The position numbers are program-made. DNA of 64,000 bases from the NCBI GenBank assembly GCA_964252035.1, contig OZ176203.1; one strand, given 5' to 3'. The stretch's first letter is position 1. The number at the start of each line of letters is the position of its first letter. Source of the stretch: Podarcis erhardii (taxonomy: Eukaryota). Shown piece by piece: positions 8,401-30,600 of this stretch.

Positions 8401-9182
8401 AAGAACTGAAAGCATGCTATGACTCAAGCACAGTTACACTATTTAACCTGCACTTCCAAAACCATAAGCTGTTGGCCCTTTGTTAACATTACATGATGGG
8501 AGGAGGCTTTTAAAAATAGGTTATGGTATAGCTGAAAAGCCTCTGTGATAGAGGAACTGGGTTACTCAGCACCTATCGTTCCAAACTTGTCCAATAAAAA
8601 ATGTTTCTCAAAGTAAACACAAGTGCATAAACTGATTTTAATATTGGATTTTTTATATTGCTGGAACCTAGCTTGGAACATTGTGGTTTGTTTATGGACA
8701 ACAAAGAGGGTGGGAGGGGAGACAACAAATGAACATTGGTTTGGAACAACTTGCAGTTTCTTTGCTCATCTGGAAGACAAATCCTGCTTGTCCAACAAGC
8801 AGGGCCGCCGACTTATAAAAAATATTGGGGGGGGGGGGCCATACCGGGGTCCTGCCCCGGGAAGTTTTCTAAGAGCCGCTCCCGGCCGTTGCTGCTGCTG
8901 CCGCCCGCCTCGTGGCCCCCTCGCCAGCTGAGGGAGGGAGAGACCGAGAAGGAGAGAGATGCGTGGTGGGCAAGGCAAGTGCCCGCCGCGCCTCGCCTCC
9001 CACCGCCCCTCGTGCCGGCCGCCCCCTCCCCTCCCTTCCCTGCGCGCACGCTCGCTCGCTCGCCCTCCTCACCCCAGCTCTTGGCCGTTCACCCCAGGAA
9101 CTCGCCGCTGTTGGCGGTTGTAGATGAACCTCCGCCCCTCGGCCATAGACTGGCTGAAGGGCTTCTCCTCCTCCTTGGCCAT

Positions 9183-9218
<36 letters not shown>

Positions 9219-27600: not shown

Positions 27601-30600
27601 AGCTGAGAGAAGGCTGTGAGCACACAGACTCCCTCCATCTTGCATGAAAATTCCCCTGCTATCCTGAATTCCTAACCATGGTTATGCTGGCATCAGTATT
27701 AAAGACAACAGATGAGAGGCAGGTAGAAGCCACATGCATGAGGAGGAGGAAATGGGATATGACCCTGAGGCTCATTTCCTCCAACACAAATAATTCTAAA
27801 TTAATGAATTAAAATAGAACCTGAGTCAAGATGACCATAACTGGCAAAATCAGAGGTCAACACAACTGGAAGTAAACCTTACCTATGTCACCTACAGTAT
27901 ATATTATTTGCCTTGTGCTGGCAAGCAAGATTATTCCTGCATCTTACATGGGTCATTTGATGCAGCTACACCAGGGATGGGGAACAGGACCTCCTACCTG
28001 TCTATCCCCTAACATTGCAATGACACCCATGCTGAGGAACAGCCAGAAGCAATTTAATGCTCCCAACCGGTCCTTGGCAGACGAGTTACCACCTGCCCCA
28101 CACTCGATGTCACACAGGTGGGCATGGTTTGGGGAAAATGGCCTCATGGGTGAAATTAGGACCTAATTAGGAAGTAGGTTCTCCATCCCTGAGCTACATA
28201 TGACTATCTAGAAGGCTCTCTTCGCATGTATTGAAAAGTGGCAGTTCAATGAATAAAGGTCTCTTCCAGGCAGCCAGCCAGCCAGCTTTGAGGTTCTTAG
28301 GACAACAGCATCTCCTACAGAAAGCAACTGAACATTCTACTCCATCATGTCTATCTTGTGAGTTTGAAAAAGGCTTAATTTTCTGCCTGTACTACCTTCT
28401 TGTCTTATTACGTGACCAAAGTATTTTATCAAGGTCATTTTAAAAAACAATCTTTTCTTTATTAACTTAACATTTTTGGCCCACACAGTCTCCCATCACC
28501 TGATGCATACTGAGATCATGCTGTCCTGCCATCTCTGTAGGCACAACCATCTTATTTCACTCTATTAAAGCAAGTGAAGACAATGCTTCCTCATCTTCCA
28601 TCTTGACTTAAGCACAGAATGTCAAGTGGCAGACATTTAACATATATCCCTTATTTAGTGCTGAAAGTCCACCCCTCATCTAGCTTAAAATGGCTGTATG
28701 ATGGGTTCTTCACTATGTATTACAACAATGCCACCCACAAATATCCTTGGCAAACACAGAAGCTATCCAAGCAACAAAAGGGATCAGTGTGGTAAGCAAC
28801 ACTGTTTAACAGAAGTGGAATGACAGCGTCACAACAGAGATATTGTTCTCATGAGTCACCACATCACAGCCATAACATGTTGAATATAAATAGGACTGGG
28901 CGATACTAGGTTTTCAACATTGCGGTATATCACCAGCCAAACAGTTTGGCGATATCCTGCGATGTTGAAAAGAGCGGCATTGGCCCCAGCCTGTGAGGCC
29001 CTGGGTGAGACTGCTTCAGCTCTCATCGCACAGGAGCTGAGGTGTTTTCACCCCAGTGCCTTGCAGGTGAGGGGTGCGAAGGCTCCCACCCTCTAGCTGA
29101 ACTAGCCCTCCACTCCCCAAGATGGAGGCAGCCCTGTGACGGAGCCTGACAGACTCTGTTTGCAAGGCTCCTTTCGCCAGCAAGGTATGAGGGTGGACAA
29201 GCGGCCTCCTTTTCTTGGGAGAAAGAGGCCGCTTGCTCTCCCTCGCATGCCCAAAGATGGAGGTGACATAACCTGACAGGTTCCGGAGTCAGGGCTCCCT
29301 TCGCCTTCGCTGGCACGGTCCTCTCAGCCAGGGAGCACAAAGACCACCCCCCGCCCCCGCAAGACTCTCCCCGCTGAGCCTCCTGCTCCCCAGCTGAGGG
29401 AGCCCAAATCCTTCTCCTGCTTGCATGCTGTCAGGAGGATTGGGGCTTCTCAGCTGGGGAGCACAAAGCCCTCCCCTCTGCTGAGGGAGCCCGGATCCAG
29501 ATCCTGCTCGGATGCAAGCGGGAGAAGGACTGAAGCTTCCTCAGCCAAGAGCGGTTACAATTGAACGGAGCCCCCACCCTGCCACTGGTTCATGCGAGCT
29601 GGTGGAGGGTTGGGGGCTCCATAAAACTGCTTGGCTGAGATGAGCCAAGCACTTTAATGACACAGCTTGATTCTCCCTCTGCATGAGGGGCAGACAGCAA
29701 TGGCGGTTTCACTCAGCAGTATATCGCTGGTGAAAATGCAGTGGCTCTGAGTCCCTCTGCCCCCAGCTGCAGATTGTTTTTCTCTTACTGCACTGGGGGG
29801 ACTCAGGAGCAGTGGCAGTTTCACTAGCAATATACTGCTGAATGAAATCACCATTGCGGTCTGCCCCTCATACCAGTCCTGGGTGATATATCAATACATC
29901 ACCCAGGCCTAAATACGAGTGGCGATCATAGCTTCATGGGTAATTTTTGAGGGGCCACATGTCAGCGGTGAGCAGGCCCAAAGCTACTCAACCTCACCTC
30001 CATTCACCCTCATACACATATACAACCACACACATTGGCATGGCCTTTAAAAAACTCTTGTGTTCTTTCAGAATGTTCTTAGTCCCTTATGCATTTTATT
30101 CCTAGTTTCCCCCACCTCAAACTCGGGCCTTTTCTCCTGGGAAAGAGTGATAAAAATGGTAGTGGAGATTCATAAATATAGAATTGCTACAAGCAAGCAG
30201 TTTTTGCAATAACAGCAGTCACCACTGCTTGAATTCTGAAAATTCAACATCTTCCCTCTCGTATTTCTAAGTCTCCGCCAATGAAGGCTTAGTTAAAAGA
30301 ACAGTAAATGGAAATAAAACAACCAAACACAAATTCGTAACATCTCAAGGTTTTCGTGGAGCAGACTTATGATTCCTACATATCTGTAATTTGGATTACC
30401 AGTTCTTTTTATTGTCCCAATAAATTGGCTGGTAAGCGCAGCTGCAAAGAGGCGGCTTTTTTCAGACACTTCCCAAATGTTAATAAAATTGCTCATGAAA
30501 ACATCATCCAGGGCACTTCTTCAAAGACCCTCAGATTGGAGAAACTTCAACCAGAGCTTGAAGGGAAAGTTCTCTACAGACAGAAAGGCTTGTAGTTAAA

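What the first reader, a model, noticed from the sequence alone, without database searches (positions are those of the whole stretch)
8800..29911. Three different hAT TIR families within 21 kb each carry GC/CpG-rich cargo
Seen: elements at 8800-9626 (827 bp), 13837-14814 (978 bp) and 28891-29911 (1021 bp) have unrelated TIRs and 8-bp target duplications (two exact, one degenerate). They are similar in size and account for the main GC-rich islands of an otherwise AT-rich, CpG-poor window. The hAT MITEs at 2068, 10721, 18585, 31807 and 57641 are short and lack such cargo. Inference: a general Pack-hAT process in this lineage may preferentially capture open, unmethylated promoter DNA, as plant Pack-MULEs favour GC-rich 5' gene ends, and seed orphan CpG islands in introns.
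Basis: partly seen in the sequence, partly recalled or inferred. Interest (0 to 1): 0.65.

Follow-up and report, generated by a model that had tools for sequence, protein, structure and literature searches.

The report
Three GC-rich transposon copies in introns
Three unrelated, roughly 1-kb cut-and-paste transposon relics sit in introns of a lizard-type APP gene; two of them have CpG-island-like interiors, but nothing here shows that these interiors are stolen gene promoters.

Summary
The three structures are at the stated coordinates. E2 (13837-14814) is a solid element: 12/12 inverted termini, 8/8 target duplication (about 0.07 such pairs expected per window) and four subterminal TAAGGGA repeats. 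E1 (8800-9626: 10/14 termini, 8/8 duplication) and E3 (28891-29911: 12/14, 5/8) are at chance level on those criteria alone. They become credible only with their repeated end motifs and their snug fit to GC-rich blocks. E3's hAT assignment is open.

E1 and E2 have CpG-island-like cores (GC 0.67, CpG o/e 0.76 and 0.70). E3 is GC-rich but as CpG-depleted as the background (0.32 against 0.29).

They are 3 of 7 GC-rich blocks; the largest is a LINE. Twelve of 15 CpG-island-like segments are other repeats.

All three lie in introns of an APP-family gene on the minus strand, in a squamate-type, non-human window.

The capture idea could not be tested, because the source genome was not available. No second copy of any interior lies in the window. 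No protein parent was found for the open frames searched in E1 and E2. E2's interior is a mosaic holding a dispersed-repeat fragment, as in the Anolis hAT/hobo-N families. Pack-hAT elements are already described in vertebrates. This is an ordinary member of a known kind.

The parts
8800..9626 (.). E1: probable non-autonomous hAT-like element, 827 bp
   Evidence: Termini match 10/14 and the 5' end starts CAGGG. G-run motifs lie in both subterminal regions. GC is 0.58 and CpG o/e 0.77. No second copy in the window.
8792..8799 (.). E1 left target-site duplication, CCAACAAG
   Evidence: Identical 8/8 to 9627-9634.
9627..9634 (.). E1 right target-site duplication, CCAACAAG
8870..9400 (.). E1 CpG-island-like core
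   Evidence: GC 0.67, CpG o/e 0.76, TpG 0.95, CpA 0.60. The 500-bp flanks of E1 have CpG o/e 0.05 and 0.00.
9067..9182 (-). First-exon-like stretch in E1: ATG at 9182-9180, 37 codons, then GTGAGG at 9072-9067, preceded by a (GA)n tract
   Evidence: Read. No homologue found. All six frames of this GC-rich core hold long open frames, so it may be chance.
13837..14814 (.). E2: non-autonomous hAT-like element, 978 bp
   Evidence: Perfect 12-bp inverted termini CATAGCTGTCAA. Null 0.067 per window. Four of the window's 11 TAAGGGA matches lie within about 90 bp of its ends.
13829..13836 (.). E2 left target-site duplication, ACAAGAGA
   Evidence: Identical 8/8 to 14815-14822.
14815..14822 (.). E2 right target-site duplication, ACAAGAGA
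13990..14023 (.). Dispersed-repeat fragment inside E2
   Evidence: 88% identical over 34 bp to 45622-45655 on the opposite strand, E = 2e-6. I recognise the motif as the 3' hairpin of CR1-type LINEs; that label is recalled, not computed.
14260..14700 (.). E2 CpG-island-like core
   Evidence: GC 0.67, CpG o/e 0.69-0.70. The left part of the same element (13837-14259) has GC 0.39 and CpG o/e 0.26.
28891..29911 (.). E3: probable terminal-inverted-repeat element, 1021 bp, superfamily uncertain
   Evidence: Termini 12/14 and flanking 8-mers 5/8. Terminal motif CTGGGYGAT three times at its ends. CATTGCGGT in both subterminal regions. The interior is full of direct repeats of about 126 bp spacing and of hairpins. 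GC 0.57, CpG o/e 0.34.
24472..24598 (-). Host exon, APP_N domain positions 46-92
   Evidence: Pfam PF02177, E = 2.3e-16, on ORF 24436-24600(-). AG and GT splice signals are visible.
46053..46250 (-). ORF holding a host exon, APP_N positions 1-52
   Evidence: Pfam PF02177, E = 1.9e-17.
151..345 (-). ORF holding a host exon, APP copper-binding domain
   Evidence: Pfam PF12924, E = 5.3e-16.

Best explanation
Three unrelated non-autonomous cut-and-paste (class II) transposon copies inserted independently into two introns of an APP-family gene of a squamate.

Each has short family-specific ends: inverted termini plus subterminal repeats, which are the parts a transposase supplied in trans must bind. 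These ends surround an interior with no coding capacity and no relation to the other two elements. This is the build of the 'orphan' hAT-N and hobo-N families described in Anolis.

Inferred: the interiors were acquired before these copies landed here, as filler DNA during abortive gap repair or template switching. They were then carried along by transposition.

In E1 and E2 the filler happens to be CpG-island-like. In E3 it is GC-rich, CpG-depleted and internally duplicated.

The retained CpGs in E1 and E2 are most simply read as youth of the copies, as with the CpG-rich SINE copies in the same window. They do not have to reflect a capture preference for promoters or protection from methylation.

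Shown: structure, composition, intronic position, absence of local parents. Inferred: mode and time of filler acquisition, mobilisation in trans, age.
For: - E2 has 12/12 termini and an 8/8 duplication, against a null of 0.067 per window. Four of the window's 11 TAAGGGA matches are at its ends.
- E1 has an 8/8 duplication, a CAGGG terminus and subterminal G-runs.
- E3's terminal and subterminal motifs recur at both ends.
- My own arithmetic: the chance that a null pair brackets one of the 7 GC-rich blocks this snugly is about 0.003 for E1's class and about 0.04 for E3's class.
- Bona fide hAT MITEs with 8-bp duplications are present at 6 further sites in the window, so such elements were active in this genome.
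- No Pfam family was found in any of the 32 ORFs of at least 60 aa that overlap the three elements. No hAT transposase domain was found in any of the 287 ORFs of the window.
- E2's interior is a mosaic: a repeat fragment, then an AT-rich CpG-poor stretch, then an island-like core.
- Anolis hAT/hobo non-autonomous families incorporate genomic DNA that often contains fragments of other TEs, and eight families share only termini with autonomous elements (PMC3014272; passages and Table 1 read).
- Twelve of 15 CpG-island-like segments are other repeat copies.
Against: - No second copy of any of the three was seen, so membership of a multi-copy family is not demonstrated.
- E1's termini match only 10/14, while its duplication is perfect.
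- E3's 8-bp duplication is 5/8. I estimate about a 4% chance for that in AT-rich flanks. Its outermost TA could equally be a TA duplication of a Tc1/mariner-type element.
- None of the four 7-8-base terminal strings of E1-E3 that I searched for occurs in the Anolis paper's text or tables.
- The target duplications do not fit the hAT consensus nTnnnnAn. E1 and E3 fit position 7 only, and E2 fits neither position.
- Youth as the reason for retained CpGs is not dated. E1's imperfect termini could mean age, in which case a CpG o/e of 0.76 would need protection from methylation.
Confidence: 0.55

Rival explanations
1. Several hAT families in this lineage act as Pack-hAT elements that preferentially pick up open, unmethylated promoter or 5'-exon DNA and scatter it, seeding orphan CpG islands in introns.
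For: - E1 and E2 cores meet the sequence criteria for CpG islands, while their flanks have CpG o/e of 0.00-0.17.
- E1 has a promoter-to-first-exon-like layout on the minus strand.
- E2 pairs a CpG-poor stretch holding an old repeat fragment with an island-like core, as an island edge would look.
- Pack-hAT elements exist in vertebrates. One frog family carries a 5' UTR in three copies, and exon capture is enriched 3.2-fold (PMC8277862, passages).
- Rice Pack-MULEs prefer GC-rich DNA (PMC5861414, passages).
Against: - No parental sequence was found in the window or at protein level.
- E3 is not CpG-rich.
- The sample is three copies.
- Most island-like segments here are plain young repeats.
- Long open frames occur in all six frames of E1's core, so the exon-like frame may be chance.
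Confidence: 0.15
2. The GC-rich interiors are the families' own sequence: remnants of the promoter, leader and first exon of the autonomous mother element, kept in internally deleted derivatives. On this view they are not captured host DNA.
For: - E1's layout (terminus, AT-rich subterminal part, GC-rich leader, ATG, splice-donor-like GTGAGG, other terminus) is what a deletion derivative keeping the transposase gene's 5' end would look like.
- In Anolis most non-autonomous hAT families are deleted versions of autonomous elements (PMC3014272).
- Maize Ac has a long CpG-rich leader (recalled, not checked).
Against: - The 37-codon frame matches no protein, transposases included.
- No transposase remnant was found in any ORF of the elements.
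- E2's interior holds a fragment of another repeat family, which points to extraneous DNA.
Confidence: 0.2
3. E1 and/or E3 are not transposons. Their termini and duplications are chance matches around native intronic GC-rich DNA, such as an intronic promoter or a decayed repeat.
For: Null expectations are 2.3 per window for E1's class and 31.4 per window for E3's class. Neither has a second copy in the window.
Against: - Both matches bracket GC-rich blocks closely.
- Both start with the CA/TA typical of hAT ends.
- End-specific motifs recur.
- E3's terminal mismatch is CG against TG, as CpG decay would give.
Confidence: 0.1

Closest known systems
Orphan hAT-N and hobo-N non-autonomous families of Anolis carolinensis (Novick et al. 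2010, PMC3014272)
   Same: - 8-bp duplications and short termini of the YARNG/TAGG type.
- Sizes from a few hundred bp to a few kb.
- Interiors unrelated to any transposase and built from incorporated genomic DNA, often with fragments of other TEs.
- E3's TAGGC terminus resembles hobo_AC's TAGGCTTGMTC, and E1's CAGGGCCG resembles hAT-N6-8's CAGAGSCGG. Both resemblances are partial (Table 1).
   Different: The four 7-8-base terminal strings I searched for do not occur in that paper. The resemblance to the two printed termini is partial. Copy number and family membership are unknown here. The paper does not describe CpG-island-like interiors in the passages I read.
Pack-TIR / Pack-hAT elements of animals (Tan et al. 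2021, PMC8277862)
   Same: DNA of non-TE appearance sits between transposon ends with a target duplication. hAT was the commonest carrier (208 of 370). One frog Pack-hAT carries a 5' UTR.
   Different: A Pack-TIR is defined by an identified parental copy, and none was found here. Most animal cases are single-copy local gap fillings with a median insert of 224 bp inside an otherwise recognisable TE. Here the foreign-looking cores are 440-530 bp, and no local parent exists.
Pack-MULEs of rice (PMC5861414, and its reference 16, which I did not read)
   Same: Each insertion makes a sharp local rise in GC. A preference for GC-rich DNA is documented there.
   Different: Different superfamily (Mutator, 8-11 bp duplication, long termini) and plants rather than animals. 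Parental genes are known there. The methylation context differs.

Membership tests
hAT superfamily, non-autonomous element | 8-bp target-site duplication | tested here: met
   E1 8/8 and E2 8/8. For E3 it is inconclusive: 5/8, and a TA duplication of a Tc1/mariner-type element fits the same bases.
hAT superfamily, non-autonomous element | Short inverted termini with the terminal motif YARNG (as stated in PMC3014272) | tested here: inconclusive
   E1's 5' end, CAGGG, fits; its 3' end, CATAG, misses position 3. E2 has CATAG at both ends (4 of 5). E3 has TAGGA and TAGGC (4 of 5, like hobo_AC's TAGGC).
hAT superfamily, non-autonomous element | Target consensus nTnnnnAn (recalled; the Anolis families show NTRNNYAN or NYYTARRN) | tested here: not met
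   E1 CCAACAAG fits position 7 only. E2 ACAAGAGA fits neither position. E3 AATATAAA fits position 7 only. The consensus is weak and statistical, so single copies cannot decide.
hAT superfamily, non-autonomous element | Termini shared with an autonomous element encoding a hAT transposase | not testable with these tools
   No hAT transposase domain in any of the 287 ORFs of at least 60 aa in the window. The source genome is not available.
hAT superfamily, non-autonomous element | Multiple copies with the same ends at different sites | not testable with these tools
   Each element is single-copy within the 64 kb.
Pack-TIR / Pack-hAT | Transposon ends and duplication around DNA that lacks a transposase | tested here: met
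   0 Pfam families in the 32 ORFs that overlap the elements.
Pack-TIR / Pack-hAT | Interior homologous to an identifiable non-TE parental locus | tested here: inconclusive
   None in the window. None at protein level for one frame each of E1 and E2. Non-coding parents and the rest of the genome could not be searched.
CpG island (sequence criteria: at least 200 bp, GC at least 0.5, CpG o/e at least 0.6) | Composition | tested here: met
   Met for E1 (8713-9463) and E2 (14167-14787). Not met anywhere in E3.
CpG island (functional sense) | Unmethylated in the germ line; promoter activity | not testable with these tools
   Needs bisulfite, CAGE or ATAC data from the organism.

The most novel reading that the evidence does not exclude
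In this squamate lineage, several unrelated hAT-like families repeatedly acquire CpG-island DNA from gene 5' ends and spread it, so that part of the lineage's intronic 'orphan' CpG islands are transposon cargo. E1 and E2 would be two instances, and E3 a decayed one. E3's TpG and CpA excess over E1's core is what decay would give, but it equals the window background, so it does not discriminate.
Probability: 0.12. Interest if true: 0.6.

Novelty: new member of a known kind. Interest (0 to 1): 0.3.

Why it matters
If the capture bias were real, it would extend the GC-rich preference known from plant Pack-MULEs to vertebrate hAT elements. It would also offer one source of orphan CpG islands. As it stands, the window shows something already documented in lizards: non-autonomous hAT-like elements with foreign-looking interiors. 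The useful caution is that in this genome most CpG-island-like sequence in introns is simply recently inserted repeat DNA.

Tried and rejected
- **Rfam over the window.** Rfam at gathering thresholds over the whole window gave 0 matches, and ARAGORN found 0 tRNA genes.
- **Rfam over 8600-30100.** At E of 1 or less there were 10 sub-threshold matches, all generic hairpin or miRNA models on palindromes. None reached its gathering score.
- **Pfam.** All 287 ORFs of at least 60 aa were scanned. Nothing was found in the three elements.
- **Protein searches for a parent.** The E1 frame 9072-9386(-) gave 4 hits in the representative library, each with 4-15 matched stretches. The 2 of 4 that I inspected were unrelated tandem-repeat proteins, and the other 2 were not inspected. 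The E1 exon-like part against proteins of 185-2000 aa gave 4 word-sharing candidates and none scoring. The E2 frame 14399-14725(+) gave 1601 candidates and none scoring. Both word-based searches state that finding none is weak evidence. Proteins shorter than 185 aa were covered only by the representative search. The other frames and all of E3 were not searched.
- **Paralogous empty sites in the window.** None found.
- **A fourth large candidate.** 47281-48597 has an 8/8 duplication and 11/14 termini. I rejected it as probably chance: no CA/TA start and no further end similarity.
- **Literature.** The first paper search was useless because 'hat' matched 'hatchling'. A search for the terminal strings found 9 papers, all unrelated by title. 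No listed paper holds 'orphan CpG islands' together with the hAT and DNA-transposon terms. The main Pack-TIR paper has 0 occurrences of 'CpG'.
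Full report
**Setting.** The window has no N, GC 0.417 and CpG o/e 0.29. I take it to be squamate, not human, for these reasons:
- Rfam finds no 7SL/Alu-type match and nothing else at gathering thresholds.
- The window carries tRNA-derived SINE copies that I recognise as the Sauria type. That label is recalled; the copies are families D7-D9 and D17.
- It holds a Penelope-like element with reverse-transcriptase and GIY-YIG domains.
- It holds a TA-flanked element whose termini match the TcMar-N4/N6 terminus printed for Anolis (against Table 2 read).

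**Host gene.** Three separately scanned ORFs on the minus strand hold exons of an APP-family gene:
- APP_N positions 1-52 at 46053-46250.
- APP_N positions 46-92 at about 24472-24598, with visible AG and GT splice signals.
- The copper-binding domain at 151-345.

I scanned these exon by exon and did not join them into a spliced model. E3 therefore lies in the intron between the first two exons, and E1 and E2 in the intron between the last two.

**The structures.**
- E2 (13837-14814) has perfect 12-bp inverted termini and a perfect 8-bp duplication. A scan for 8/8 duplications flanking termini of at least 10/14 found 11 candidates in the real window, against a mean of 2.3 in 30 shuffles. At 12/14 or better the null mean is 0.067. 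Four of the window's 11 TAAGGGA matches lie within about 90 bp of E2's ends. E2 is a genuine element.
- E1 (8800-9626) has a perfect duplication but 10/14 termini, which is the class with 2.3 chance hits per window.
- E3 (28891-29911) has 12/14 termini and a 5/8 duplication. That class gives 31.4 chance hits per window over 10 shuffles. The real window gave 129, many of them trivially inside the large palindrome described below; I did not count those separately.

E1 and E3 therefore rest on added evidence:
- Both bracket one of the 7 GC-rich blocks closely. By my own arithmetic, the chance is about 0.003 for E1's class and 0.04 for E3's class.
- Both start with CA or TA.
- Both have end-specific motifs. 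CTGGGYGAT occurs at E3's ends 3 times out of 6 in the window, with 0.6 expected. The window's only two exact CATTGCGGT matches are in E3's two subterminal regions. TTGGGGGGGG occurs in both subterminal regions of E1, 2 of 6 in the window.

E3's superfamily is open. Its outermost TA could be a TA duplication.

None of the three has another copy in the window, and their interiors are unrelated to each other.

There is a sixth at 27972-28191.

**Composition.**
- E1's core (8870-9400) has GC 0.67 and CpG o/e 0.76.
- E2's core (14260-14700) has GC 0.67 and CpG o/e 0.70. The left 420 bp of E2 have GC 0.39 and o/e 0.26.
- The flanks of E1 and E2 have CpG o/e of 0.00-0.17.
- E3's core has GC 0.60 but CpG o/e 0.32, which is the background value. 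It consists of direct repeats with a spacing of about 126 bp and several hairpins.
- Of 7 blocks with GC of at least 0.55, three are the elements. The largest (53779-55445) is a LINE with a 601-aa reverse-transcriptase frame.
- Of 15 segments meeting CpG-island sequence criteria, E1 and E2 are the two longest. One is an APP exon. Twelve overlap SINE, LINE, Penelope-like or MITE copies identified.

'GC-rich' therefore holds for all three elements. 'CpG-rich' holds for two. 'The main islands' is only partly right.

**What the interiors are.**
- No ORF overlapping the elements (32 ORFs of at least 60 aa) has a Pfam family.
- E1's minus strand reads like a promoter and first exon: a (GA)n tract, an ATG at 9182-9180, 37 codons, then GTGAGG. 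However, all six frames of this GC-rich core carry long open frames.
- That frame found no relative among 1.84 billion representatives. There were 4 hits, each with 4-15 matched stretches. The two I inspected are unrelated tandem-repeat proteins, and the other two were not inspected. It also found none among proteins of 185-2000 aa.
- One E2 frame with an ATG and a hydrophobic start found none either.
- These negatives are weak. A short N-terminal exon must be nearly identical to score, non-coding parents are invisible to protein searches, and only one frame per element was searched.
- E2's interior contains a 34-bp fragment 88% identical to a repeat at 45622-45655. I recognise it as a CR1-type LINE 3' hairpin; that label is recalled. 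It lies next to AT-rich, CpG-poor DNA and then the island-like core. E2's interior is therefore a mosaic of extraneous DNA.

**Comparison with the literature.**
- In Anolis, 32 non-autonomous hAT families are described. Eight share nothing but termini with autonomous elements. [quoted passage not shown] None of the four terminal strings of E1-E3 that I searched for occurs in that paper. E3's TAGGC and E1's CAGGGCCG resemble the hobo_AC and hAT-N6-8 termini only partly.
- Pack-type capture by hAT elements is already documented in animals. There are 370 Pack-TIRs in 100 genomes, 208 of them hAT, and 13.4% capture exonic sequence (3.2-fold enrichment). One frog hAT-N8 family carries a 5' UTR in three copies. 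Most are single-copy gap fillings, and 56.9% lie within 15 kb of the parent (PMC8277862; abstract, section 8 and passages). No such nearby parent exists here. The window covers at least 8.8 kb to the left and 34 kb to the right of each element.
- I found no paper linking vertebrate Pack-type elements with CpG islands in the searches. Supplementary Data 1 of PMC8277862 may list lizard cases but could not be opened.

**Verdict.**
- The best reading is three independent insertions of non-autonomous hAT-like elements with filler interiors, as known from lizards. E3's superfamily is uncertain.
- The CpG richness of E1 and E2 is no more than what young repeats in this window show.
- The promoter-capture model is neither supported nor excluded. 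Its test needs the source genome, which was not available.

Noticed in passing
window 19835-22862: A Penelope-like retroelement (RVT_1 and GIY-YIG domains) lies as a head-to-head inverted dimer. The arms are 1431 nt and 100% complementary, around a 166-nt spacer. The 3' tails point outward, and the right side runs on into a further tail sequence. Perfect identity means either a very recent insertion or an assembly artefact.
   Followed up: partly
window 26586-26693 and 41029-41202: Miniature palindromes made of the same Penelope-like 3' tail. One has 52-nt perfect arms with a 4-nt spacer, the other 47-nt arms with an 80-nt spacer. They look like extremely 5'-truncated inverted dimers of the element above. 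They draw sub-threshold miRNA-hairpin matches in Rfam.
   Followed up: partly
window 151-345, 24472-24598, 46053-46250 (minus strand): Three exons of an APP-family gene (Pfam APP_Cu_bd and APP_N). The whole finding lies in two of its introns. The first exon and promoter were not found in the window.
   Followed up: partly
window 53766-55568 (minus strand): An uninterrupted 601-aa frame with a reverse-transcriptase domain (RVT_1, E = 1.7e-37). It is a LINE copy and forms the largest GC-rich block of the window.
   Followed up: no
Termini are CAGGGATGGGGAAC, 13/14, and the duplication is AGCTACAC against AGCTACAT, 7/8.
   Followed up: partly
window about 43484-43745: A TA-type element whose termini nearly equal the TcMar-N4/N6_AC terminus printed for Anolis (against Table 2). 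It is inserted inside a SINE copy. Uninterrupted relatives of that SINE lie at 58245-58390, which gives an in-window 'empty site' comparison.
   Followed up: partly
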